64,000 nucleotides of DNA from the IMG/VR virus record IMGVR_UViG_2684623061_000003, positions 2,999 through 66,998 of that record, one strand, 5' to 3'. The DNA is from a virus (taxonomy: Duplodnaviria > Caudoviricetes). The position numbers were made by a program, and so were the translations under genes. The notes beneath the pieces were generated by a model, which searched no databases, was not told the DNA's origin, and saw nothing but the letters and a program-made list of their open reading frames with translations. Positions 2,094 to 26,022 of this stretch are shown piece by piece (the first letter of the stretch is position 1; every line of letters starts with the position of its first letter).

Positions 2094-2558
2094 TCAGTAT
2101 CGTTTGATACGCAGGACCGACAGCGCTCGTGCCAGCCAGGGGGCGGGGGGTCCGGTTTGGGGCCCTTCGTGCCTAGGTCTCTCGACGGCGAGGCATCTAT
2201 CTGCTTCTGACGCCTCGGCTGCCTGCCCCTTCGCCACGATCAGCGGCACACCGGCAATCTCAAATCGAACCCTAAGCCGCAGGTCGTCCATGTACGACCG
2301 AGTGAGCCGGTCATCGGACGCAACCACAATGGCTCTGACGAACCCGGCGTCCATATGCCGAAGCATTGATTGCAGACCCGGCCGTCTTACCGTTGATCCC
2401 GCCATGCCGTCGTCGCAGTAGGTGACCGTCGCCGATTCGCCGAACACTTCCTCGGCTGCGCGCTGGGCCTGCGCGTACTGCTGCAAGATGGCGCCGGGAT
2501 CTGGCACGTCCGAGCGGGCGTAGATCACGACGTTGCCTATTTTCTCCTCACCGCTCAT
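2094..2558 (-). CDS. Serine recombinase catalytic-domain-only protein
   Basis: VIYARSD, YCDDGMAGS..RRPGLQSML, DDRLTRS; no DNA-binding domain. Confidence 0.75.
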   Translation of the reverse strand: MSGEEKIGNVVIYARSDVPDPGAILQQYAQAQRAAEEVFGESATVTYCDDGMAGSTVRRPGLQSMLRHMDAGFVRAIVVASDDRLTRSYMDDLRLRVRFEIAGVPLIVAKGQAAEASEADRCLAVERPRHEGPQTGPPAPWLARALSVLRIKRY

Positions 2559-3030
2559 GTCTCTCTCCCTTCCTGGTGGACTGCGGTCGCAGCCCGAAGA
2601 ATGCGGGACCTGACCAGCGGGTCCCGGTGATTTCCCTGGCGATCTTCGACAAGCTGCCGTAACGCCTGCCGTCGTAGTCGAACCCACCGTCCTGCAGTAC
2701 CGTCACTCGATGGAGTCGGCCGCCATGTTCCCGTGTCAGGACCACGCCCGGAGTTGGCGCGGGCGCTGCGGCACGGCGGGTGACCTTGCCGGTTTCGACC
2801 AGCCGCTGGATGCGTTTGGTGTTGCTCTCAATGAGCGGGTTGGCATTGGTCCGATACGCCTCTTCTTGCAGGCGATGGGCCAGTCGGCGTACCGCGTACC
2901 GGCGATTGTTTACGCCGGGCGGCTCGCCGAAGTACTCCAACCACTTCACTTTGATTTCCTTCCAGCTCAGGTGCGGCAGCGCCGCGACCTGAGCGGCAAG
3001 GGTTCTCTGCGCGACACTTTTCTCCATCAC
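2548..3030 (-). CDS. DUF2924-like protein
   Basis: PGVVLTREHGG..HRVTV...FDYDGRRYGSLSKIAREITGTRWSGPAFFGL; typical neighbour of such integrases. Confidence 0.85.
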   Translation of the reverse strand: MMEKSVAQRTLAAQVAALPHLSWKEIKVKWLEYFGEPPGVNNRRYAVRRLAHRLQEEAYRTNANPLIESNTKRIQRLVETGKVTRRAAAPAPTPGVVLTREHGGRLHRVTVLQDGGFDYDGRRYGSLSKIAREITGTRWSGPAFFGLRPQSTRKGERHER

Positions 3031-3230
3031 AGTCGGCCTCCACGGCTCTCCAAGGGGTGGTCATACACCCTCGTTTCGCCCGTGTTATCAAGCCCAACCT
3101 GTCCAGAGAAACCACTCGCGCGACGATCCTTCGGTTGCAGACGCCGCAACGCGGTCACGGCTAGATCGGCGATCTGCTTCACCCGTTCCTCCGGCGTTTG
3201 TGATGGGGCGCTTCTATTGTCCTTGGTCAT
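3027..3230 (-). CDS. Small hypothetical protein
   Basis: AAAGGA RBS before ATG 3230; stop overlaps the DUF2924 start. Confidence 0.6.
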   Translation of the reverse strand: MTKDNRSAPSQTPEERVKQIADLAVTALRRLQPKDRRASGFSGQVGLDNTGETRVYDHPLESRGGRL

Positions 3231-12249: not shown

Positions 12250-12455
12250 TGGCGCCCGAGTTCCGGTACCGCTCCCCGTTAGGCCGCTTCATGCCACAGA
12301 CGCTGGACCTCGACCGGCTCAAGCGCGAGGGCTGGCGTCAGCAGGGCTTACTCGTGGTATCCGCCGAGGACTCACGCCTGGACTGGGTAGAACGGCAGTT
12401 GTTGAACCAGATCGCCGAGCGCCTCTACGGCAAACGGGAGCATGCCCATGGCTGA
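12246..12455 (+). CDS. Small conserved phage protein
   Basis: ATGA-coupled; LKREGWRQQGLLVV..D.RL.W.ER. Confidence 0.7.
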   Translation: MMAPEFRYRSPLGRFMPQTLDLDRLKREGWRQQGLLVVSAEDSRLDWVERQLLNQIAERLYGKREHAHG

Positions 12456-12876
12456 GTGGACCGTCCAGAAAGTCGCCGATCAGTTCCAGGAGGCGGCCAT
12501 CACCGCCCGCCGACTGCCGCCGGCCAAGGTGCAGGGCTACGCGTCGTATTGGCCGGACATCCAGCGGCAGTCATGGGAAGGCTACTCAGACGAGCGAATC
12601 GTCCTGCGCTTTGCTGCATCGCCTGCGGCGATTGACCGCTTCGGGCAGACCGTGCGGTGGCTGAGGTGGCTGGACGAGGAACAACGGCGCCTGGTCTGGC
12701 TGAGGGCCCAGCAAGTGCCGTGGCGCGAGGTCTGCACGCGTACTGGGCTGATCCGCAAGACGGCGTGGCGTCGATGGCAACACGCACTGGTTCTGGTGAC
12801 CGTTCACCTCAATGGCCCGTTGCCGCGCTTCGCGGCGGTCAAAACCGTTGATGATCGAACGGCGTTGTCCTATTGA
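12448..12876 (+). CDS. DUF6362-like putative late transcription regulator
   Basis: WT...VA..F.EA..T.RRLP..K.QGY..YWP; sigma-region-4-like C-terminus; last gene of the early operon. Confidence 0.7.
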   Translation: MAEWTVQKVADQFQEAAITARRLPPAKVQGYASYWPDIQRQSWEGYSDERIVLRFAASPAAIDRFGQTVRWLRWLDEEQRRLVWLRAQQVPWREVCTRTGLIRKTAWRRWQHALVLVTVHLNGPLPRFAAVKTVDDRTALSY

Positions 12877-17987: not shown

Positions 17988-18959
17988 CCCGGCCGCTTAC
18001 TACAACGAAATTGATCCCTACCTTTGCGGTTGGCTGCGCAATCTCATTGCGGCCGACCTGATTCTCCCTGGCGACGTCGATGACCGAGACATTCGATCTG
18101 TTCGCGCAGACGACCTGCGCGGCTACGGCCAGTGCCACTTCTTCGCCGGCATCGGCGGCTTCGCCTACGCCTGCCGACTCGCGGGCTGGCCGGATGACGA
18201 GCCGGTCTGGACGCTGGCTTCCCCTGCCAGCCGTTCAGCGTTGCAGGCCGCCAGCGCGCGCAAGCGGACGACCGCCACCTCTGGCCGGAACTGCGCCGCC
18301 TTATTGCATCGGCGCGCCCCTCTCTATTCGTGGCCGAGAACGTTGCTGGCCTCGTCGCGCTGGGCCTCGACGGAGTTCTTGCTGACCTGGAGGCTGAAGG
18401 CTACGCCAGCCGGGCGATTGTTGTTCCAGCTTGCACCGTCGACGCCCCGCACCGACGCGACCGGGTTTGGATCGTCGGTAGCCGTTTGGCCGACCGCGAC
18501 GGCGAACGACCCCGAGAAGCGAGGCGACTTTGCGGCCGAACGACGCAATGGCCTGCCTGGGGTAGCGAAGGCGGTGTGGAGCACGCTCGGGCGAGCGACG
18601 GCGAGAAGGGCGGGCCGAATCAACAGTTCGGCAGTGGGTCGACCCGACCGCTGACGGCGCAGGCGGTCTGGGCGACACCGACGGTGCGCGATCACAAAGA
18701 CGCATCGAGCATTGGCAGCGCACCGGAGAATGGGATGCTTGGCAGACAAGTCAAACCCTCGCCGGTCGCCGGGTATCTCAATCCGAAATTCGTCTTCTGG
18801 CTGATGGGATATCCGCCCGAATTCCTAAGCTGCGCGCCGCCGGCAATGCGATTGTCCCGCAGGTCGCCGCCGAAATCCTCCGCGCCCTGCGGGGCTGACG
18901 TCGCGCACGTGCGCGACGTCAAGACGTTGGTTCAGCCCACTACGGCAAGTCCCACGTAG
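17984..18959 (+). pseudogene. C5 cytosine methyltransferase with an overlapping alternative-frame subunit; three apparent 1-nt deletions
   Basis: HFFAGIGG (frame 1), GFPCQPFS and ENV (frame 3), GNAIVPQVA (frame 2); alternative frame carries WPTAT/WATPT repeats and LNPKF..WLMGYP. Confidence 0.8.
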
Positions 18960-19258
18960 CGGGCGTAGTTGTAGCCCTCGGGTCGGACATACAAAGTCGG
19001 ACGGCCCGGCGCTTCGCATCGAACTTCGAGCACCTCATTGCATATGCCGTCGAAGGCGGCCAGCCAGTCGCGGTCGCGCAGCAGCTGCCTTGCAAAGGCG
19101 TCGTATTCTTCGGCAGTTAGTTGCTTGACCGCGACGACCAGCGCCATCTCGGCGCGGATGTTGAGGTGGCTCAGCTCCCGATGGACCCAAGACAGGCTCT
19201 CGGCCTTGCGCACAAATCTGACCATCAGGTTGCGGGGCGTAACGGTCGTGGTGGTCAC
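18932..19258 (-). CDS. Small phage protein (DUF6329-like)
   Basis: EEYDAF...LL.DRDWL...LYVRPEGYNYARYVG; downstream of motif copy 1. Confidence 0.7.
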   Translation of the reverse strand: MTTTTVTPRNLMVRFVRKAESLSWVHRELSHLNIRAEMALVVAVKQLTAEEYDAFARQLLRDRDWLAAFDGICNEVLEVRCEAPGRPTLYVRPEGYNYARYVGLAVVG

Positions 19259-19285
19259 TGCGGTCTTCCTTGGTGGGCGTGCGGG

Positions 19286-19316
19286 CATGAACGCTTCAAT
19301 CTCAGCAGAAGCCAAG
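19286..19316 (-). promoter_or_regulatory. 31-bp motif copy 1 (cTTGGCTTC-N10-GAAGCGTTCATG)
   Basis: Plus strand catgaacgcttc aatctcagca gaagccaag. Confidence 0.8.
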
Positions 19317-19427
19317 TCATTCATCGCGGAAATGCGCGAAATTTCGACCTCGTTAAGGTGCCGGACAAGAACGAACTTTCTCCCTCCCGCAACGCGGCCG
19401 GGCGAAGCGCCCAGCCGCTCGCGTTCC

Positions 19428-20069
19428 TCATTCTTCCTCGTCGGCGGCGCCTTCGGCCGCGGTCGCCATCTCCTCGGTCTTTATGCGGTACGCGCGGTCT
19501 GCCTTGCCCTCCTTATTGCTGATCAGCTCATAGCCCTTCTTCTTCAGCGCGCCGGCAAAGAAGCCGCGCACCGAGTGCTGCTGCCAGTCGGTTGCGGCCA
19601 TCACCTGGGCAATGGTCACGCCTTCGGGACGCATCAACAGCGTGACCACTTGGTCGACACGGGTTTCCTTGCGCTTGGACGGCGCTGCTGCGGCGACCGG
19701 ACCAGCGTCCGCCGAGTCGCCAGCACTAGCCGCTCGCTCGCCGCTGTCCACGACACCGTTGTCCGTATCGCCCACGTCATCGTTGGCATCGGCATTGTCG
19801 TTGTTGACGATGTCGCTGCCGGTGACTCCGTCAAAGCCGACCCCAACCCTGTCGGGGTCTTCCGGGGGCTGGTGGCCCACGGCCTCGTAACCGGCGTCGG
19901 TCAGGATGTGACCAGCTCCTGCGGCGACGATGAAGCCGTTGTGCAGTAGACCGCGCACCACCGCCGTGCGCGCACCGCCGCCGAGGTTCTTCGGATAGTT
20001 CTCGATGCGACCCGCGGTCTCAATCGCGAGAAGGATCAGGGCGCGCTGGCTGTCGGTAAGCTTGTTCAT
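19428..20069 (-). CDS. DUF3489-like winged-helix protein
   Basis: VVTLLMRPEGVTIAQVMAATDWQQHSVRGFFAGALKKKG...RAYRI. Confidence 0.85.
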   Translation of the reverse strand: MNKLTDSQRALILLAIETAGRIENYPKNLGGGARTAVVRGLLHNGFIVAAGAGHILTDAGYEAVGHQPPEDPDRVGVGFDGVTGSDIVNNDNADANDDVGDTDNGVVDSGERAASAGDSADAGPVAAAAPSKRKETRVDQVVTLLMRPEGVTIAQVMAATDWQQHSVRGFFAGALKKKGYELISNKEGKADRAYRIKTEEMATAAEGAADEEE

Positions 20070-20140
20070 TACAGATTCCTTGGTAAGTGGTGGGTGTATT
20101 CGAGTGAGCGCGCCCCGTCGATTCGGGGCGCGCGGATGGT

Positions 20141-20371
20141 TCAGCCGGTGAGGATTTCGCCGATGGCTTTGCGGACATCGACCTCACCTTCGGCGATGGA
20201 GTGGATCACGTCGTCTGGGAGCTTTTGGAGGAAGAAGGTCGCGCGGCGTTCGATCTCGCGCTGGGCTACCTCTGTCCAGTCCGTCAGCACCGTGAGTTGG
20301 GCCAGCGCCGAGGGGGTGCCCGTCTTCATTCCGCGTAAGAAGTCCTTCAGGATTTGCGTTCCGTCTTGCAT
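20141..20371 (-). CDS. Small hypothetical protein
   Basis: GGAGG RBS before ATG 20371; downstream of motif copy 2; followed by hairpin gcgcgccccg/cggggcgcgc. Confidence 0.65.
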   Translation of the reverse strand: MQDGTQILKDFLRGMKTGTPSALAQLTVLTDWTEVAQREIERRATFFLQKLPDDVIHSIAEGEVDVRKAIGEILTG

Positions 20372-20404
20372 GTCTGGCCTCCGTGGCCGTCGTTGGTGTG
20401 GCGA

Positions 20405-20435
20405 CATGAACGCTTCCTTCGCCGACGAAGCCAAG
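20405..20435 (-). promoter_or_regulatory. 31-bp motif copy 2
   Basis: catgaacgcttc cttcgccgac gaagccaag. Confidence 0.8.
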
Positions 20436-20554
20436 CGAATGCAGCGATAAAGAACTATCGTGCTCAAACATAGACAGGTGTCGGACAGCTGCGCCGAACA
20501 GGAACGAAAACGCCCCCGCTTGGGGGCGTATGTGTTGTGCTTCGGAGAGTGAGT

Positions 20555-20944
20555 TCAGGCGATACGGCGTTGCCGGATGGCGGTCGGAATGAGCAAATCG
20601 CAGGCCTTTCGCTCAGTCCAGTGGTATGCGAGCGGCTCGATCTCCGGGATAGGCAAGGTGACCACGGTTTCAGCGCGCTGGTCGAGCGACCACTCGCTGG
20701 CTTCGCCTTCGCCGAGCCAAACGCCGCCCAGCATCGTATGTCGCTCCGGGGTAAGCGCGTCCACGTGGCTGCCGTTGGCCGCGCGTACCGCCGCCGCGTA
20801 GCCTGCTAAGTAGGCGGCGGTCAGCGCGGCGTCGATACCCCACACCGAAACGCTATGGAAGTCCAGGCTATCGCTGCCGCGGGTCTCGAGTATCGCTACA
20901 TCCAAGTGCTGCTGCGCGATGGTAGTGAGCGTCTTCTTATTCAT
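20555..20944 (-). CDS. DUF6900-like protein
   Basis: IAQQHL.V..LETRGSDSLDFHSVSVWGI.AAL.AAY.AG; GGAGG RBS. Confidence 0.8.
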   Translation of the reverse strand: MNKKTLTTIAQQHLDVAILETRGSDSLDFHSVSVWGIDAALTAAYLAGYAAAVRAANGSHVDALTPERHTMLGGVWLGEGEASEWSLDQRAETVVTLPIPEIEPLAYHWTERKACDLLIPTAIRQRRIA

Positions 20945-20978
20945 GACAGCCTCCGTGGCCGTGCGTGTTGGGTGCACG

Positions 20979-21009
20979 CATGAACGCTTCCGTTTCGCCG
21001 GAAGCCAAG
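20979..21009 (-). promoter_or_regulatory. 31-bp motif copy 3
   Basis: catgaacgcttc cgtttcgccg gaagccaag. Confidence 0.8.
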
Positions 21010-21129
21010 CGAACCCGTCGCCATATCCGGGCATCCACCGTCGCCAGACAACCGCCGTACAGCTGAGGCCGTGTGATTCTCTGGTAACTAAACAGAACGG
21101 GGGAATGGTCATTCTTCTTCCAATATCCA

Positions 21130-21160
21130 CTTGGCTTCCCGACCGAAGGAAGCGTTCATG
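21130..21160 (+). promoter_or_regulatory. 31-bp motif copy 4
   Basis: cttggcttc ccgaccgaag gaagcgttcatg. Confidence 0.8.
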
Positions 21161-21187
21161 TCGGTGCCGCGACGACGCGGTGAATCC

Positions 21188-21751
21188 ATGGAACATATGA
21201 TGAGCGACTTCCGGACGCCCGACCGTTCAGTACTCGCGCACGTCAGATTGCAAGGCATGCACAGATGCATTGAGCTACTCTTGCTATCCAATGCCCGGAT
21301 ATTTGAAGGACCTACGCGGGCGCCCTTGGTTGGGTGCTATGCCCTCGCCAGCGCGCTGTCTGCTCACTGCACTTCTCTTCGGGCCAGTCGGCTCGATCCG
21401 GAAGCGCTGATCTGGTTGCTAAAGGTTTGTAGAGACGAACTGGAGCCCCTGGAAAAGTCCAACGGGCAAGGCAATGGTCGGTCCGAGAAGCGCCGCGTCC
21501 CTGGCAAGTTTTGCGAAGATGAAGTAACCCTTCGATGGTTGCATAGCGCGATTAGCCGCTACCTAGACGAGCAGGAGCCCCAATCGACGCCTCGGCCGGT
21601 ACGTCAACTCGAACGCCTTCTGAGGCAGGCCGAGCTGCTGACGATTTGGGACATACCGGATGCGGATTACGAGAAGGGCTTGCGAGCGAGTATTCGGGGA
21701 CTGAAGCGCGCGGTGCGGGCGGCGTTCGGTTCACCGTCTGGTTGGGGGTAA
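21188..21751 (+). CDS. Hypothetical protein, paralog family A
   Basis: Aligns by eye with 22865-23395 (CIE.LLL.N..IF, F.EDE..LR.L...I.RYL...EP, LLT.WD..D..YE.GLR.SIRG). Confidence 0.75.
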   Translation: MEHMMSDFRTPDRSVLAHVRLQGMHRCIELLLLSNARIFEGPTRAPLVGCYALASALSAHCTSLRASRLDPEALIWLLKVCRDELEPLEKSNGQGNGRSEKRRVPGKFCEDEVTLRWLHSAISRYLDEQEPQSTPRPVRQLERLLRQAELLTIWDIPDADYEKGLRASIRGLKRAVRAAFGSPSGWG

Positions 21752-22299
21752 GTCAACCATTCACGCCAGCCTGCGACGGCTGGCCGGGCCGGCTCTCTTC
21801 CGAAACGTTGGCCTGCGGCTTCCTGTCCGTCCGCTGTCCCGTCCCTGCGGTCCGCAAACGAGTCGCTTGGCTTTGTCCCGAGTGGACACACGGCGTTTGC
21901 GGCGTAGAGGCGTGCGCTTCATTGGCACGATTCATCAAACCCTGGGCCCGCCTTGACCGTGCGCGGTGCACTGAACCCGTTGAAGTTTGCTCGCGCGTGG
22001 CCGCCGCCGAAGATGAACTTCGGGACTGGGAGCGGCGGGTAAGAAGCGGATTCAACCCAATCAAACGTCGACCCAAACGACGCAACGAGGCCGTCGCCAG
22101 CGCCCTCTCGGATGTGGCGCACCGGATTGATGACTACCTCCAGTGCCGACCGGCGCTGACGCCACGCCAGTGGGTTGAACAGGCGCTCACGGTGGTCGAG
22201 CGATTGCATGTATGGCGGCCCCGCGACGCTGAGTATCAGCACGGAATCAGCCTCGCGCTCAGCGGGCTGGAGCAATCGCTAGGCCAGTTGCCGGAGTAG
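21646..22299 (+). CDS. Hypothetical protein, distant paralog family A (true start uncertain, probably downstream of 21751)
   Basis: C-terminal IDDYL...W...DAEYQHGI...L.GL pattern. Confidence 0.5.
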   Translation: MGHTGCGLREGLASEYSGTEARGAGGVRFTVWLGVSQPFTPACDGWPGRLSSETLACGFLSVRCPVPAVRKRVAWLCPEWTHGVCGVEACASLARFIKPWARLDRARCTEPVEVCSRVAAAEDELRDWERRVRSGFNPIKRRPKRRNEAVASALSDVAHRIDDYLQCRPALTPRQWVEQALTVVERLHVWRPRDAEYQHGISLALSGLEQSLGQLPE

Positions 22300-22362
22300 A
22301 CGCAGACGGTCTATGCGAAGCTGTCGGGGACCTGTCTGCTGGTGCAAATGCGACGTCATGCT

Positions 22363-22393
22363 ATTGGCTTCTGCGGAGAAGGAAGCGTTCATG
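22363..22393 (+). promoter_or_regulatory. 31-bp motif copy 5
   Basis: attggcttc tgcggagaag gaagcgttcatg. Confidence 0.8.
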
Positions 22394-22430
22394 ACGACGC
22401 CGCAACGACGCGGCGAAAGGGGAGACGACG

Positions 22431-22679
22431 ATGGCAAATGTGGCTGACTGCCGATTCCAGAGCACCGCATCGGATCTGGCGGACTGCGAACAGGCCTTGG
22501 CAGAAATGTCCGATGGCGATCCACCCCGACTCAGTGAAGAGGAGTTGCGGGCGGCACAGCGCTTGGTCAGCTGCTGCCTGAACATCGTGCAGCTGCTGGC
22601 CGAGCGCGGATCGTTGGATTTTGAGCCCGATATGGATCTGAATTCGGTGCTCGATGAGCTGAACGAAGCGGCGTCCTAA
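22431..22679 (+). CDS. Small acidic phage protein
   Basis: MAN...CRFQ.T..DL.DC N-terminus; GGGGAG RBS; downstream terminator. Confidence 0.7.
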   Translation: MANVADCRFQSTASDLADCEQALAEMSDGDPPRLSEEELRAAQRLVSCCLNIVQLLAERGSLDFEPDMDLNSVLDELNEAAS

Positions 22680-22693
22680 TACAGCGAGAGAGC

Positions 22694-22724
22694 AAACCCC
22701 AGCGCCCAAAGGGTGCTGGGGTTT
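22694..22724 (+). terminator. Intrinsic terminator
   Basis: aaaccccagcgccc-aaa-gggtgctggggttt. Confidence 0.7.
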
Positions 22725-22796
22725 CCCTCTTCCTGATCACGCAGATTGGGTTCTTGTCTGACACCTGTACCGTTTTGCGAACCGCGACCGGCACCG

Positions 22797-22827
22797 CTTT
22801 GCTTCCTCTTGGAAGGAAGCGTTCATG
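22797..22827 (+). promoter_or_regulatory. 31-bp motif copy 6
   Basis: ctttgcttc ctcttggaag gaagcgttcatg. Confidence 0.8.
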
Positions 22828-22864
22828 ACTATGCCGCACCAATGCGGTACACGGAGATGAGGGC

Positions 22865-23395
22865 ATGAACGATGCTGAATTGAGGGTGCGGGCAGAGCTG
22901 CTGAGCCTGCGCGACTGTATTGAGCGGATTCTTTTGGCGAATGGGCCAATATTCGATTCCGGTCATAAGCTGACGCTGCGGGTTTGTCACGGGTTTCTAC
23001 ATCTTCTCTCGGCGAACATCATTGCCGCCCGGTCGATTCGGATCTATCCGGGGAACGTCATTCGTTGGACTGAGCTTTGTCGGCTGGAGTTGATCGTACT
23101 AGAACGAGCTATCGACCCAGTAGGCGGCTGGAACAAGCGGCGCGAGTTGCCCCTTGAATTCAGCGAGGACGAGTTGGTCCTGCGAGGGCTATACGACCAT
23201 ATCGACCGTTATCTCGAAGGACTGGAGCCCGAGTACGCGCCGCTGCCTGCGCAAGTTCTGGACCGGGTCTTGCGACAACTTAAGCTGCTGACGGGCTGGG
23301 ATGTGGCGGACGAGCAGTACGAGCTTGGCTTGCGGTTCAGTATCCGGGGTGCGAACTGCGCCCACGCCGCTGCGGAATGTGCGCCCAGTCATTAG
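22865..23395 (+). CDS. Hypothetical protein, paralog family A
   Basis: See 21188-21751; followed by hairpin acacccttgctccc/gggagcaggggtgt. Confidence 0.75.
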   Translation: MNDAELRVRAELLSLRDCIERILLANGPIFDSGHKLTLRVCHGFLHLLSANIIAARSIRIYPGNVIRWTELCRLELIVLERAIDPVGGWNKRRELPLEFSEDELVLRGLYDHIDRYLEGLEPEYAPLPAQVLDRVLRQLKLLTGWDVADEQYELGLRFSIRGANCAHAAAECAPSH

Positions 23396-23520
23396 CGACC
23401 ACCGCGCGAGAGCGCACACCCTTGCTCCCCATGGGAGCAGGGGTGTTCCCTCTTTCCTCCACCACCTGATCTGCCCCGAACGCCGGTGGCCGCGGAGGCT
23501 GACCCGAATCGAATCATGAC

Positions 23521-24072
23521 GTGGGAATTTCCATCCGTGCTTACGGCCGCCATCGCGGCGTGTCCGACACCGCCGTGCGCAAGGCCATTGCGACCGGCCG
23601 CATCACCGCCGAGGCGGACGGCACGATCAATCCGGCTCGCGCGGATGCCGAATGGGCGGCTAGCACCCGCACCCGAGATCCGCCCCTGACGGCGCCATCG
23701 CGGCCGGTGAGAGCGCGCGCGGCGACCGCAGCCAACGTAGACGACATGGCCAGCGTAGCACCGGTCGCTGGCAACGGCGGCGGCAATACTTACGCGCAGG
23801 CACGCACTGCCAATGAGGTGCTCAAGGCCCAACACCATAAGCTGCGTATCGCCCAGCTCAAGGGCGAACTCATCGACAGGTCGCAGGCGATGGCTCAGGT
23901 GTTCGCGCTGGCGCGCGCTGAGCGCGACGCCTGGTTGAACTGGCCCGCGCGGATCAGCTCAATGCTGGCCGCCGAACTGGACGTAGATCCGCATGTCATA
24001 CATGTCGCGCTAGAGCGCGAGGTGCGACAGCACCTGACCGAACTCGCGGAGTTCAACGCTCGACTGGATTGA
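23521..24072 (+). CDS. Terminase small subunit-like protein
   Basis: N-terminal HTH SIRAYGRHRGVSDTAVRKAI, KGELID; directly upstream of TerL. Confidence 0.8.
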   Translation: MGISIRAYGRHRGVSDTAVRKAIATGRITAEADGTINPARADAEWAASTRTRDPPLTAPSRPVRARAATAANVDDMASVAPVAGNGGGNTYAQARTANEVLKAQHHKLRIAQLKGELIDRSQAMAQVFALARAERDAWLNWPARISSMLAAELDVDPHVIHVALEREVRQHLTELAEFNARLD

Positions 24073-24075
24073 TTC

Positions 24076-26022
24076 TTGTACGACGGCTTCGACCACGTTG
24101 AGAAGGCGTGGCGCGATGGCCTGACACCCGATCCGTTCCTCGATGTCTCCGAGTGGGCGGATCGCGACCGGGTCCTGTCCAGCACCTCATCGTCAGAGCC
24201 GGGTCGCTGGCGCACCGCGCGCACGCCGTACCTACGCGACATCATGAACGACCTGTCGCCTGCCTCGGCGACGGAGCGCGTGGTCTTCATGAAGGGCGCG
24301 CAGGTCGGCGGCACCGAGTGCGGCAACAACTGGATCGGCTACGTCATCGCCTGTGCGCCGGGCCCGATGATGGCCGTGGCGCCCACGGTCGAGATGGCCA
24401 AGCGCAACTCGAAACAGCGCATCGACCCGCTGATCGAGGAATCGCCCTCGTTGCGCGAGCGTATTGCGCCGTCTCGGGCGCGCGACGCCGGCAACACGAT
24501 CCTGGCCAAGGAGTTCCGCGGCGGCGTCCTGGTCCTGACGGGCGCAAATAGCGCAGTGGGCCTGCGCTCCATGCCGGTGCGCTACCTGTTTTTGGACGAA
24601 GTGGACGGCTATCCGCGCGACGTGGAGGGCGAAGGCGACGCGGTGGCGCTGGCCGAGGCCCGTACCCGTACCTTCACCCGCCGCAAGATCCTGCTGGTCT
24701 CGACGCCGACGATTGCCGGAGCCAGCACCATCGAACGCGAGTACCTGGCCTCCGACCAGCGCCGGTACTTCGTGCCGTGTCCGCACTGCGCCCACGAGCA
24801 GTGGCTGCGGTTCGAGCAGCTGCGCTGGACCTGGGGCGACCCGCGTTCTGCCCGCTATATCTGCGAGGCCTGCGAGGAGCCAATCGGGGAGCACCACAAG
24901 ACGGCGATGCTCGCGGCGGGTCGCTGGATCGCCACGGCGCCGAAGAACAAAGGCAAGACCGCCGGCTACCACCTGTCGTCGTTGTACTCGCCGGTGGGCT
25001 GGCGCAGTTGGGCCGATATCGCCGCCGCCTGGGAATCGGCTCAAGGTTCCGCGACGGCGCTGAAGGCGTTCAAGAACACCGAGCTCGGGGAAACCTGGGA
25101 AGAGGAAGGCGAGGCCCCGGACTGGGAGCGCCTGCTGGAGCGCCGGGAGGACTATCGGATCGGCACGGTGCCGACCGGTGGCTTGATGCTGACCGGCGGC
25201 GCCGACATCCAGAAGGACCGGATCGAGGTCTCGGTTTGGGCCTTCGGCCGGGGCCGTGAGACCTGGCTTGTCGAGCATCGCGTGTTGATGGGCGACACCG
25301 CCCGCGCTGCGGTCTGGAATGAGTTGGGTGCGCTTCTGTCAGAACGCTGGACCCACGCCAGCGGCGCACTGTTGCCGCTGACTCGGCTGGGCTTGGACAC
25401 CGGCTTCGCGACGCAGGAGGCCTATGCGTTCGCGCGCGGCGTCCAAGACCCACGGCTGTTGCCGATGAAGGGTATCGGCAGCGGTGCGGCGCTGATCGGC
25501 ACGCCCACCGCGGTCGACGTCAGCGTGCCGGGCAAGCGGTTGCGCCGGGGGCTGAAGCTGTTCGCCATTGCGGGCGGCATCGCCAAACTGGAGTTCTACA
25601 ACGCCCTGCGTTTGTCGATTGAGATCGGTCCGGACGGGCAGCCGGCATTTCCGGCCGGCTACGTCCATCTGCCGAAGATCGACGGCGAGTTTCTTCAGCA
25701 GTTGACGGCCGAGCACTTGATTACCCGCCGGGACCGCCATGGATACCCGGTTCGGGCCTGGGAGAAGCGGCGGGATCGAAACGAGGCTTTGGACTGCTAC
25801 GTCATGGCACGCGCCGCGGCGATGCAGGCCGGTGTCGATCGCTTCGAGGAGCGCCATTGGCGCGAGATGGAGCGATCGCTCGGGCTTGTGCCGCCATCGA
25901 CTTCTTCACCACCGGTCGTACCGGTCTATCCATCCGTCGAGGCCACCCCACCGGGTGGCCTTTCCATTTCCGCACCCGCGCGCCGAGGGCGCCGGGTCAT
26001 TCAAAGCCGTTTCATGCGATGA
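24076..26022 (+). CDS. Terminase large subunit (lambda gpA family)
   Basis: RTPYLR, MKGAQVGGTE, FLDEVD, STPT, VPCPHC, ADIQKDR, RNEALDC. Confidence 0.95.
   Translation: MYDGFDHVEKAWRDGLTPDPFLDVSEWADRDRVLSSTSSSEPGRWRTARTPYLRDIMNDLSPASATERVVFMKGAQVGGTECGNNWIGYVIACAPGPMMAVAPTVEMAKRNSKQRIDPLIEESPSLRERIAPSRARDAGNTILAKEFRGGVLVLTGANSAVGLRSMPVRYLFLDEVDGYPRDVEGEGDAVALAEARTRTFTRRKILLVSTPTIAGASTIEREYLASDQRRYFVPCPHCAHEQWLRFEQLRWTWGDPRSARYICEACEEPIGEHHKTAMLAAGRWIATAPKNKGKTAGYHLSSLYSPVGWRSWADIAAAWESAQGSATALKAFKNTELGETWEEEGEAPDWERLLERREDYRIGTVPTGGLMLTGGADIQKDRIEVSVWAFGRGRETWLVEHRVLMGDTARAAVWNELGALLSERWTHASGALLPLTRLGLDTGFATQEAYAFARGVQDPRLLPMKGIGSGAALIGTPTAVDVSVPGKRLRRGLKLFAIAGGIAKLEFYNALRLSIEIGPDGQPAFPAGYVHLPKIDGEFLQQLTAEHLITRRDRHGYPVRAWEKRRDRNEALDCYVMARAAAMQAGVDRFEERHWREMERSLGLVPPSTSSPPVVPVYPSVEATPPGGLSISAPARRGRRVIQSRFMR

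What the first reader, a model, noticed from the sequence alone, without database searches (positions are those of the whole stretch)
18932..23395. Six copies of an exact-spacing 31-bp dyad motif drive a divergent array of small unknown genes
Seen: cTTGGCTTC-N10-GAAGCGTTCATG at 19286, 20405 and 20979 (minus) and 21130, 22363 and 22797 (plus). The N10 spacer varies in sequence but never in length, and GCTTC/GAAGC is an inverted repeat. Every copy points at a start codon about 27-37 nt downstream through a short leader, often hairpinned (ccgc...gcgg) and with an RBS; several units end in their own terminator. TTGGCT lies 17 bp before GTTCAT, a promoter-like geometry with the dyad between the boxes. 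I did not notice the motif elsewhere in the window. Inference: a modular regulon of promoter-gene-terminator cassettes (DUF3489-, DUF6900-, DUF6329-like and novel genes) switched together by one factor, plausibly an early host-takeover or anti-defence island; the repeats could also be shuffling points. This is the best candidate for an undescribed system here.
Basis: partly seen in the sequence, partly recalled or inferred. Interest (0 to 1): 0.86.

Follow-up and report, generated by a model that had tools for sequence, protein, structure and literature searches.

The report
Conserved phage promoter tied to DUF3489
The six repeats are copies of a nearly invariant 30-bp promoter-like element found in hundreds of related prophages, always placed just before small genes and almost always beside a two-winged-helix DNA-binding protein, DUF3489, that may control it.

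Summary
Observation confirmed. Six copies of TTGGCTTC-N10-GAAGCGTTCATG lie at the stated places (0.01 expected). None lies elsewhere in the 66,998-bp provirus record, and a truncated seventh copy sits at 21867.

The element is not a local oddity. About 200 class I copies occur in 57 other loci. A sister form, gcTTGGCTTC-N6-GAACAGCGCGTTCAT, occurs in at least 120 more viral stretches, including cultured phage AcaML1. The universal core is TTGGCTTC-N13-GCGTTCAT. The GCTTC/GAAGC dyad is not conserved.

191 of 202 copies sit 17-45 nt before an SD plus start codon. Geometry fits a promoter (TTG, 17 bp, GTTCAT, start at a conserved C-R-C), but the -10 lacks the key A, so it is not a sigma-70 consensus. 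The genes driven belong to nine recurrent families, so they are not random cargo.

The motif tracks a tandem winged-helix protein, DUF3489: 77 of 80 DUF3489-selected loci carry it, and 94 of 113 motif-selected loci encode DUF3489. It does not track the sigma-4-like DUF6362. Copies before DUF2924-serine-recombinase operons occur without DUF3489.

Best reading: a phage-specific promoter family under a dedicated factor, DUF3489 most likely. Direction of control is unresolved, and I found no RNA data. The anti-defence idea has no support.

The parts
19286..19315 (-). promoter-like motif copy 1 (exact)
   Evidence: followed 27 nt later by AAGGAAG and a GTG start
18932..19258 (-). Fam3 gene, 108 aa, phrog_21303, function unknown
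   Evidence: 25 motif-driven homologues in 23 loci
20405..20434 (-). promoter-like motif copy 2 (exact)
   Evidence: CTGTC-N6-CTGTC repeat at 20473-20488 upstream
20141..20371 (-). Fam2 gene, 76 aa, no family; first gene of the unit that also holds DUF3489
   Evidence: (31 homologues in 28 loci)
20108..20133 (-). G+C hairpin without a T run, between Fam2 and DUF3489
   Evidence: not accepted by the terminator scan
19428..20069 (-). DUF3489 protein, 213 aa: two winged-helix domains joined by an acidic disordered linker; candidate regulator of the motif
   Evidence: Pfam PF11994 E 4.6e-23; AF2 model; VIA Z 8-9.5 to MarR-type and 7.8-8.2 to ArsR/NiaR-type winged helices
20979..21008 (-). promoter-like motif copy 3 (exact)
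20555..20944 (-). DUF6900 gene, 129 aa
   Evidence: Pfam PF21841 E 1.1e-21
20510..20529 (-). intrinsic-terminator-like hairpin with T run after DUF6900
21131..21160 (+). promoter-like motif copy 4 (exact); back to back with copy 3, 122 bp apart
21188..21751 (+). Fam1 paralogue a (start at 21188 or 21197)
21823..21886 (+). truncated seventh unit: CTGTC repeats (21823-21838) and left box TTGGCTTT (21867-); right box lost
   Evidence: alignment with L009 and L010
21646..22299 (+). open frame of a third Fam1-like gene; true start uncertain, own promoter broken
   Evidence: likeness to Fam1 judged by eye
22364..22393 (+). promoter-like motif copy 5 (exact); CTGTC repeats at 22321-22336
22431..22679 (+). 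Fam0 gene, 82 aa, phrog_8760
   Evidence: 46 homologues in 28 loci
22697..22721 (+). hairpin followed by TTTCCCTCTTCC after Fam0
22798..22827 (+). promoter-like motif copy 6 (TTTGCTTC, 1 mismatch)
22865..23395 (+). Fam1 paralogue b, 176 aa
23417..23450 (+). terminator-like hairpin between the array and the small terminase gene (23521-24072)
12442..12876 (+). DUF6362 protein with a sigma-region-4-like C-terminal half; context gene, disfavoured as the motif's factor

Best explanation
The 30-bp element is the core promoter of a conserved transcription module of a large group of temperate phages and related integrative elements of Proteobacteria.

Anatomy:
- cTTGGCTTC in the -35 place.
- 13 bp, often holding GAA.
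- GCGTTCAT in the -10 place.
- Transcription starting 6-7 nt further on, at a conserved C-purine-C.
- A short leader that either begins with a GCCGC...GCGGC hairpin or is C/A-rich, then a Shine-Dalgarno sequence and a small gene, often closed by a hairpin.

The -10 place lacks the adenine that sigma-70 needs, and 16-25 positions are nearly invariant across hosts of four proteobacterial classes. I therefore infer that host RNA polymerase uses these promoters only together with, or under the control of, a dedicated element-encoded DNA-binding protein. The best candidate is DUF3489, a tandem winged-helix protein whose own gene is the first or second gene behind a copy in nearly every locus. On this reading the module is autoregulated and its genes switch together. 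In other elements the set includes the DUF2924-serine-recombinase operon.

I lean to activation, because the -10 is poor, but the sign is not settled.

Shown: the anatomy, the conservation and the co-occurrence. Inferred: the start site, promoter function, the identity of the factor and the sign of control.
For: Motif and chance:
- 6 copies against 0.01 expected.
- 198 copies against 1.0 in shuffles across 80 DUF3489-selected loci.

Position:
- 191 of 202 class I copies lie 17-45 nt before an SD plus start codon.
- 181 of 188 non-redundant class II copies have an SD plus start codon, and in 125 it lies 33-36 nt away.

Geometry:
- TTG is kept in all left-box variants, 17 bp before GTTCAT.
- In positions the search did not constrain, C35 is 77%, C37 is 94%, and position 36 is mostly purine.
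- The leader hairpin starts at position 36-37 in 82 of 155 leaders.
- A-rich tracts recur about every 10 bp upstream.
- No sigma-70 consensus promoter is found in 18800-23600, so these copies are the only promoter candidates for eight genes.

Regulon: 184 of 193 downstream proteins fall into nine families.

DUF3489 link:
- 77 of 80 DUF3489-selected loci carry the motif. 186 of 198 copies lie on its strand, and 39 of 80 loci have a copy within 150 nt upstream of it.
- 94 of 113 motif-selected loci encode DUF3489.
- In a sample of 151 genomes, 7 have the motif, 7 have DUF3489 and 5 have both (Fisher p 7e-7). The two DUF3489-only genomes carry mismatched copies beside the gene.

Discrimination from DUF6362:
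- AcaML1 has DUF3489 and 4 copies but no DUF6362 (best E 0.27).
- Rhodobacter phage RcFrancesLouise has DUF6362 but neither DUF3489 nor the motif.

Protein:
- Two winged helices are modelled with pLDDT above 90.
- W162, Q163, H165, V167, R168 and G169, at the start of the third helix of the C-terminal winged helix, are invariant in 24 sequences. This matches an invariant DNA target.
- No canonical sigma domain is found in the record.
Against: - There is no transcript evidence. No RNA run was available, so the start site and promoter activity are inferred.
- Two genomes (G059, G142) carry a single copy before DUF2924-recombinase. They have no DUF3489 over cut-off and no terminase of this type.
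- Four beta-proteobacterial loci show the same with no DUF3489 within 8 kb. The motif can therefore exist without DUF3489 nearby.
- At genome level DUF2924 co-occurs with the exact motif in 7 of 7 genomes, DUF3489 in 5 of 7.
- 9 of 113 motif-selected loci have room downstream of the motif but no DUF3489.
- The loci are related by descent, so the counts are not independent events. Co-occurrence of a gene with its own promoter does not show binding.
- In the window itself, DUF3489 has no copy of its own. It lies behind Fam2 and a hairpin.
Confidence: 0.5

Rival explanations
1. Same promoter, opposite logic. It is intrinsically active with host polymerase, and the invariant boxes are the operator of an autorepressor (DUF3489 or another element protein). 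The repressor keeps the module, and in other elements the recombinase, low in the lysogen.
For: - The element overlaps both the -35 and -10 places, as many operators do.
- Three [C/G]TTC-type half-sites lie 9-10 bp apart in alternating orientation. That suits winged-helix repressors of the MarR/ArsR kind, which are the best structural matches.
- Each unit has its own promoter and hairpin, like genes expressed from a prophage.
- No S24-type repressor is found in the record.
Against: - The -10 place lacks the sigma-70 adenine, and the consensus scan finds nothing, so strong intrinsic activity is doubtful.
- Remnant elements without DUF3489 would then express the recombinase constitutively.
Confidence: 0.2
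2. The cognate factor is another protein. One candidate is DUF2924, or its partner recombinase, which follows the motif in many elements. Another is the sigma-region-4-like DUF6362, encoded after the RuvC-like resolvase in the place where lambdoid phages keep Q.
For: - DUF2924 is present in 7 of 7 genomes with the exact motif, and it lies directly behind the copy in G059, G142, AcaML1 and nine beta-proteobacterial or other loci.
- The C-terminal half of DUF6362 matches sigma region 4 (Z 6-8, rmsd 1.3-3.5 over 56-72 residues). It is present in 5 of 5 close relatives and in 49 of 80 DUF3489 loci.
Against: - In the window, DUF2924 (2548-3030) has no copy before it. G118 has motif variants but no DUF2924. 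G143 has three DUF2924 genes and no exact motif.
- DUF6362 is absent from AcaML1 and G054, which have the motif. It is present in RcFrancesLouise, which has none.
- hhalign finds no likeness between DUF3489 and DUF2924 that could explain shared binding.
Confidence: 0.13
3. There is no dedicated factor. This is an unusual promoter read by host polymerase alone, or with a widespread host factor. It looks invariant only because the elements share recent ancestry and the copies homogenise by recombination.
For: - None of the three candidate proteins is found in every motif-bearing genome.
- Copy number and order vary in the F0/F1 arm, and one breakpoint lies inside a copy. Both show recombination among copies.
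Against: - Proteins next to the motif have diverged to 31-38% identity (DUF3489), while 16-25 motif positions stay fixed. That argues for selection, not recent ancestry.
- Hosts span four proteobacterial classes by record titles.
- The motif is not seen outside mobile DNA in a 6.4-Mb host genome.
Confidence: 0.12
4. It is not a promoter at all. It could be an RNA-level signal within longer transcripts (processing or translation control), or a DNA site for packaging or recombination near the terminase gene.
For: - The position before start codons is fixed, and a conserved GCAAC[GC]AC box and hairpins lie in the leader.
- The copies lie next to terS.
- There is a breakpoint inside one copy.
Against: - Units on both strands diverge from a 122-bp centre, so no upstream transcript could supply them.
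- Hairpin terminators precede many copies.
- The leader stem barely covaries: 57 of 68 read GCCGC. Rfam finds nothing.
- Copies before recombinase genes lie far from any terminase.
Confidence: 0.05

Closest known systems
T4-type phage PeSL cassettes (promoter-early stem-loop units around small novel ORFs; recalled, no paper read here)
   Same: - A repeated promoter plus hairpin flanks single small genes of unknown function.
- The number and order of cassettes vary between relatives, and the repeats are likely recombination points.
   Different: - PeSL promoters are ordinary sigma-70 early promoters of lytic phages. Here the -10 is non-canonical.
- The element is far longer and nearly invariant.
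- The genes are nine recurrent families rather than novel cargo.
- The phages are temperate.
Phage promoter classes read with a dedicated phage factor: T4 middle promoters with MotA/AsiA, P2 late promoters with Ogr, Mu Pm and late promoters with Mor and C (recalled)
   Same: - A phage-wide promoter class with a conserved box in or near the -35 place.
- It cannot be explained by host sigma-70 alone.
- A small phage DNA-binding protein is encoded in the same genome.
   Different: - Those promoters keep a good sigma-70 -10. Here the -10 place itself is an invariant non-consensus box.
- DUF3489 shows no sequence likeness to MotA, Ogr, Mor or C. The only link is a weak fold hit to the MotA N-domain (rank 18, E 0.13).
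- Binding has not been shown.
Morons of lambdoid prophages (promoter-gene-terminator inserts; recalled)
   Same: Autonomous small units with their own promoter and hairpin lie between conserved phage modules, here between the methylases and the terminase.
   Different: Morons are unrelated to each other and carry their own diverse promoters. Here all units share one promoter and recur as the same families in hundreds of proviruses.
Mycobacteriophage L5 stoperators and Cluster K start-associated sequences (recalled)
   Same: Many copies per genome of one short asymmetric site, in a fixed orientation relative to transcription and close to gene starts, tied to one phage protein or process.
   Different: - Those are 13-bp sites that block elongation or lie 3-8 bp before start codons.
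- This element is a 30-bp bipartite one with promoter geometry, 17-45 nt before the start, in Proteobacteria.

Membership tests
sigma-70 consensus promoter | -35 hexamer like TTGACA | tested here: met
   TTGGCT. TTG is kept in 96-100% of 164 non-redundant copies and in all left-box variants.
sigma-70 consensus promoter | spacer of 16-18 bp | tested here: met
   17 bp between TTGGCT and GTTCAT in every copy.
sigma-70 consensus promoter | -10 hexamer like TATAAT, with A at position 2 and T at position 6 | tested here: not met
   GTTCAT has T at position 2. The consensus scan finds 0 sites in 18800-23600.
Pfam DUF3489 (gene 19428-20069) | score over the curated cut-off | tested here: met
   81.5 bits against a cut-off of 29.5, E 4.6e-23, residues 131-196.
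winged-helix DNA-binding fold (DUF3489, both domains) | three helices plus a beta-hairpin wing, matching solved winged helices | tested here: met
   AF2 pLDDT is above 90 in residues 1-70 and 140-190. N-domain: Z 9.0, rmsd 1.6 over 62 residues (7el2_A). C-domain: Z 8.2, rmsd 3.9 over 65 residues (4omy_A). DNA binding itself was not tested.
sigma factor region 4 (DUF6362, 12442-12876) | sequence membership in Sigma70_r4 families, and region-4 fold | tested here: inconclusive
   There is no PF08281 or PF04542 hit in the record. The fold matches sigma region 4 of many ECF sigmas at Z 6-8, which the tool notes may reflect only a common arrangement. No region 2 was seen.
PeSL-type mobile regulatory cassette | repeated promoter plus stem-loop bounding single ORFs, with gene content shuffled between relatives | tested here: inconclusive
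   The repeated promoter and hairpins are present. The F0/F1 arm varies in number and order, and one breakpoint lies inside a copy. The other arm is conserved in order, and the genes are recurrent families.
lambda Q / PR'-type late promoter | drives the late operon through terminators after a factor loads between -35 and -10 | tested here: not met
   186 of 198 copies point with DUF3489, away from the terminase genes. Loading and antitermination are not testable here.
generic host repeat (REP-like) | scattered through the host chromosome, unrelated to gene starts | tested here: not met
   All 5 matches in a 6.4-Mb genome lie in two prophage clusters. 7 of 151 genomes have any match, and the reversed-pattern control is 0 of 151. 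191 of 202 copies lie 17-45 nt before a start.

The most novel reading that the evidence does not exclude
DUF3489 is a new kind of promoter-specificity factor. Its two unlike winged helices, held by a flexible acidic linker, bind the two unlike invariant boxes TTGGCTTC and GCGTTCAT, 21 bp apart. They stand in for, or redirect, sigma regions 4 and 2. Host polymerase is thereby diverted to a pan-proteobacterial phage regulon that includes the factor's own gene, a set of small effector-like genes and, in many elements, the serine integrase operon.
Probability: 0.15. Interest if true: 0.85.

Novelty: new variant of a known kind. Interest (0 to 1): 0.62.

Why it matters
If the reading holds, the benefits are these:

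- **A shared regulatory code.** A large and so far uncharacterised group of temperate phages and integrative elements would share one. Hosts include Lysobacter, many Betaproteobacteria, Acidithiobacillus and some Alphaproteobacteria. The code is a 30-bp promoter that can be found by pattern search, and it marks which genes switch together.
- **A testable function for DUF3489**, a widespread domain of unknown function.
- **A tractable system.** AcaML1 is cultured and inducible.
- **Linked targets.** The element ties the control of small genes next to the terminase to control of the integrase operon.
- **Better annotation.** It gives annotators a way to place gene starts and find missed small ORFs.
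- **A possible tool.** A compact, factor-dependent promoter that works across proteobacterial classes could be useful.

Tried and rejected
**Expression data.** No RNA holder was listed for 18900-23500. Only two metagenome DNA runs held small shares, so read laying was not used and no start site could be read.

**Known RNA families.** Rfam found none; the only hit was a chance miRNA match at E 0.22.

**Function of the array genes.**
- NCBIfam and PADLOC gave nothing useful for the eight array proteins, DUF6362 and the 302-aa protein.
- Sequence search of solved structures found nothing for DUF6362. For DUF3489 it found one weak hit at E 1.
- Foldseek on both models gave no match at E <= 0.001. 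The VIA searches were more informative.

**Other sigma classes.** By eye, against consensus sequences recalled from memory, I compared the motif with sigma-54, sigma-32, sigma-28, ECF (GGAAC...CGTT), hrp-box, CtrA, LexA, FNR and MerR-type sites. None fits the spacing. These are not tests.

**Upstream elements.**
- The CTGTC-N6-CTGTC repeats share the core and the 11-bp period of the Pho box (recalled). They lie 40-55 bp upstream of the -35 place and occur in only 85 of 164 copies. I treat them as family-specific sites of unknown role.
- The GAAC-N4-GTTC palindromes occur in 38 of 164 copies. They are treated likewise.

**Packaging or cos site.** Rejected, because copies sit before gene starts and also far from any terminase.

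**RNA structure in the leader.** The stem is nearly invariant (57 of 68 read GCCGC), so covariation cannot be judged. Class II leaders keep the sequence GCAAC[GC]AC with different pairing partners (by eye). That speaks for a sequence signal, not a structural one.

**Shared DNA-binding domain in DUF3489 and DUF2924.** hhalign found none.

**Literature.**
- No paper held both boxes in a relevant context (listing only).
- None of the 25 listed papers held either 12-mer (listing only).
- DUF3489 appears in one paper, where I read only the one passage found. It says that a fold link was detected and gives no function.
- DUF6362 and DUF6900 appear in no paper. DUF2924 appears in three Wolbachia papers (listing only).
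- For AcaML1 papers I saw the listing only.
- Supplements were closed and not consulted. They might hold promoter or transcript tables for AcaML1-like phages.

**Search that missed.** An over-strict universal pattern with GAA missed two known loci. I replaced it with TTGGCTTC-N13-GCGTTCAT.

Full report
**1. The observation**

The pattern TTGGCTTC-N10-GAAGCGTTCATG, with up to 3 mismatches allowed, occurs six times in the window.
- Three copies are on the minus strand, at 19286, 20405 and 20979.
- Three copies are on the plus strand, at 21131, 22364 and 22798. The last reads TTTGCTTC.
- 100 shuffles give a mean of 0.01, and none reaches six.
- The window is bases 2999-66998 of a single 66,998-bp provirus record. 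That record holds no other copy.
- An alignment of the six units shows that conservation extends beyond the 30 bp, into an upstream TGTC-rich element and a leader with an SD.
- A seventh unit is truncated. Its upstream repeats (21823-21838) and left box (21867-21886) align with sister loci L009 and L010, but homology stops inside the N10 and the right box is gone.

**2. Context**

The record is a temperate phage. Its gene order is:
- serine integrase (364-1758);
- DUF2924;
- Sak4-like, Cas4-like exonuclease and primase-polymerase genes;
- RuvC-like resolvase;
- DUF6362 (12442-12876);
- ParB-methyltransferase and a C5 methylase;
- the array;
- small and large terminase (23521-26022), portal and so on.

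Rhs genes follow beyond about 51 kb.

The array has two arms.
- The leftward arm holds DUF6900, Fam2 followed by DUF3489, and Fam3.
- The rightward arm holds Fam1, a broken Fam1-like frame, Fam0 and Fam1.

**3. The element is widespread**

*Class I.* Exact class I matches occur in 26 IMG/VR stretches and 31 stretches of species genomes. Most are Lysobacter. Several are Betaproteobacteria, and a few are alphaproteobacterial MAGs by record title.

A relaxed scan of those 57 loci plus the window (up to 4 mismatches) gives 202 copies: 105 exact, 45 with one mismatch, 11 with two, 12 with three and 29 with four. Of these, 164 are non-redundant.
- The right box GAAGCGTTCATG is almost invariant.
- The left box also occurs as TTGATGTTC, TTGCGATTC and TTTGCTTC. 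TTG is kept, but the GCTTC/GAAGC dyad is not.

*Class II.* Loci chosen only for encoding a DUF3489 relative revealed a sister form, gcTTGGCTTC-N6-GAACAGCGCGTTCAT.
- It occurs in cultured phage AcaML1 and in Ralstonia phage YO164_3.
- In 188 non-redundant class II copies, positions that the search pattern left free are 78-100% conserved.

*Universal core.* The core common to both classes is TTGGCTTC-N13-GCGTTCAT.

**4. Why I read it as a promoter**

- 196 of 202 class I copies are followed by an SD plus start codon. In 191 the distance is 17-45 nt.
- The same holds for 181 of 188 class II copies, with a mode of 33-36 nt.
- TTGGCT lies 17 bp before GTTCAT.
- Six to seven bases after GTTCAT, positions that were not part of the search are conserved: C35 at 77%, position 36 mostly purine, C37 at 94%.
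- In 82 of 155 leaders a GCCGC-loop-GCGGC hairpin begins exactly at position 36-37. That is where a transcript would start.
- Upstream, A-rich tracts recur about every 10 bp, as in UP elements (recalled).
- The two arms diverge from a 122-bp centre, and hairpins precede many copies. No upstream transcript could serve them.
- The sigma-70 consensus scan finds no promoter in the whole 4.8 kb. These copies are therefore the only candidates.
- The same scan shows why the element is unusual: GTTCAT lacks the A at position 2.

No RNA run was available. The start site remains an inference.

**5. What the promoters drive**

The 193 complete downstream proteins are small, with a median of 95 aa. 184 of them fall into nine families.

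| Family | Copies |
|---|---|
| Fam0 (phrog_8760) | 46 |
| Fam1 | 32 |
| Fam2 | 31 |
| Fam3 (phrog_21303) | 25 |
| Fam4 (not in the window) | 16 |
| DUF6900 | 15 |
| DUF2924, followed by a serine recombinase | 9 |
| DUF3489 | 5 |
| Fam8 | 5 |

- None has a known function.
- Each family keeps its own upstream furniture, on the same core. Fam2 has CTGTC-N6-CTGTC at -54 plus a GAAC-N4-GTTC palindrome at -29. Fam0 and Fam1 have the repeats at -43 or -44.
- Across loci, one arm keeps its order: DUF6900, Fam2 with DUF3489, Fam4, Fam3. The other arm is a variable run of Fam0 and Fam1 cassettes.
- Together with the breakpoint, this gives some support to recombination at the repeats.

**6. Which factor?**

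The record has no canonical sigma domain.

*DUF3489.* It folds as two winged helices with pLDDT above 90, joined by a disordered acidic linker.
- The N-domain matches MarR-type winged helices at Z 8-9.5.
- The C-domain matches ArsR/NiaR-type winged helices at Z 7.8-8.2.
- Residues at the start of the third helix of the C-domain are invariant in 24 sequences.

*DUF6362.* Its C-terminal half resembles sigma region 4 at Z 6-8. This is within the range the tool calls common.

*Co-occurrence of the motif with DUF3489.*
- 77 of 80 DUF3489-selected loci carry the motif, with 198 copies against 1.0 in shuffles.
- 186 of those 198 copies lie on the DUF3489 strand.
- 39 of the 80 loci have a copy within 150 nt upstream of the gene. 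Most others have one 300-400 nt upstream, behind one small gene.
- 94 of 113 motif-selected loci encode DUF3489. Of the other 19, 10 have less than 750 nt downstream of the motif.

*Genome sample.* In a sample of 151 genomes of one order, the table below shows which genomes carry each feature. For the three protein families, genomes are counted if they score over the curated cut-off.

| Feature | Genomes positive |
|---|---|
| Exact universal motif | G006, G019, G050, G054, G059, G068, G142 |
| DUF3489 | G006, G019, G050, G054, G068, G118, G126 |
| DUF2924 | G006, G019, G050, G054, G059, G068, G126, G142, G143 |
| DUF6362 | G006, G019, G030 (fragment), G050, G068, G118, G126 |

- The motif and DUF3489 share 5 genomes (Fisher p 7e-7).
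- The reversed-pattern control is 0 of 151.
- The two DUF3489-only genomes carry mismatched copies beside the gene.

*DUF3489 versus DUF6362.*
- AcaML1 has DUF3489 and four copies. Three lie in the DUF3489 arm and one lies before the Gp4-recombinase operon. It has no DUF6362 (best E 0.27).
- Rhodobacter phage RcFrancesLouise has DUF6362 (E 6e-23) but neither DUF3489 nor the motif.
- G054 likewise lacks DUF6362.

*Against DUF3489 as a necessary partner.*
- G059 and G142 carry one copy before DUF2924-recombinase. They have no DUF3489 and no terminase of this type.
- DUF2924 is present in all 7 genomes with the exact motif.
- Four beta-proteobacterial loci show no DUF3489 within 8 kb.

All these loci are related by descent, so the counts are not independent events.

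**7. Mechanism**

*Most likely (0.5).* This is a phage-specific bipartite promoter. Host polymerase uses it only with, or under the control of, a dedicated element protein, and DUF3489 is the best candidate.
- Nearly all units that hold DUF3489 start with a copy, so the module would be autoregulated.
- I lean to activation because the -10 place is poor.
- Repression of an intrinsically active promoter is the main rival (0.2).
- Other rivals are another factor such as DUF2924 or DUF6362 (0.13), no dedicated factor (0.12), and not a promoter (0.05).

*Shown.* The motif, its statistics, its position before starts, its conservation, the gene families, the folds and the co-occurrence.

*Inferred.* The start site, promoter activity, binding and the sign of control.

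**8. Comparison with what is known**

All four comparisons rest on recall; no paper was read for them.
- In layout it resembles the T4-type PeSL cassettes and lambdoid morons.
- In logic it resembles the promoter classes read with MotA/AsiA, Ogr, Mor or C.
- In copy pattern it resembles the mycobacteriophage stoperators and start-associated sequences.
- It fails the sigma-70 -10 test, points away from the late operon, and shares no protein family with those systems.

My literature searches found no description of the motif or of DUF3489 function. They cover open-access full text only.

**9. Verdict**

This is a real, highly non-random and widely conserved regulatory element. It is best filed as a new variant of a known kind, a phage-specific promoter class with a candidate dedicated factor.
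- The dyad and the anti-defence reading do not hold.
- Interest: 0.62.

Noticed in passing
window 21823-22299: A seventh unit lost its right box at a breakpoint inside the motif. The Fam1-like frame behind it (21646-22299) has no obvious promoter or start. It may be a decaying paralogue or the product of recombination at the repeat.
   Followed up: partly
window 12442-12876: DUF6362, encoded just after the RuvC-like resolvase, has a C-terminal half like sigma region 4. The Pfam model gives many sub-threshold hits to 200-250-aa host frames that look like ECF sigmas. It may be this phage group's late-gene regulator, separate from the motif.
   Followed up: partly
L141 (AcaML1 JX507079.1) 22244-22272, minus strand: One motif copy lies inside the annotated gpNu1 (Gp33) frame on the opposite strand. 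An SD and ATG of an unannotated small ORF follow it, ahead of Gp32 (DUF3489). The record's annotation there may need revision.
   Followed up: no
L027, L040, L041, L045, L047, L049, L051, L052, L054, L256, L257; L141 at 3015-3043: The same motif precedes DUF2924-large serine recombinase operons in beta-proteobacterial elements, in AcaML1, and in two genomes that lack this phage's terminase. The motif-recombinase unit may travel on its own.
   Followed up: partly
window 20473-20488, 22321-22336, 22754-22769, 21047-21062: Oriented CTGTC-N6-CTGTC direct repeats, phased at -54, -43 or -32 from the motif, occur in 85 of 164 copies. Their core and 11-bp period recall the Pho box (recalled). Their role is unknown.
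   Followed up: partly
This was not examined.
   Followed up: no
G000:C1:2470-2607, just left of the window: The only HTH_3 (XRE-type) match of the record lies outside the window, beyond the integrase. No S24 peptidase domain is found anywhere in the record, so the phage's main repressor is not identified.
   Followed up: no
window 20108-20133: A 10-bp G+C hairpin without a T run lies in the 71-nt gap between Fam2 and DUF3489. L010 shows a gap of the same length. It may be an attenuator or an RNA-stability element within the unit.
   Followed up: no
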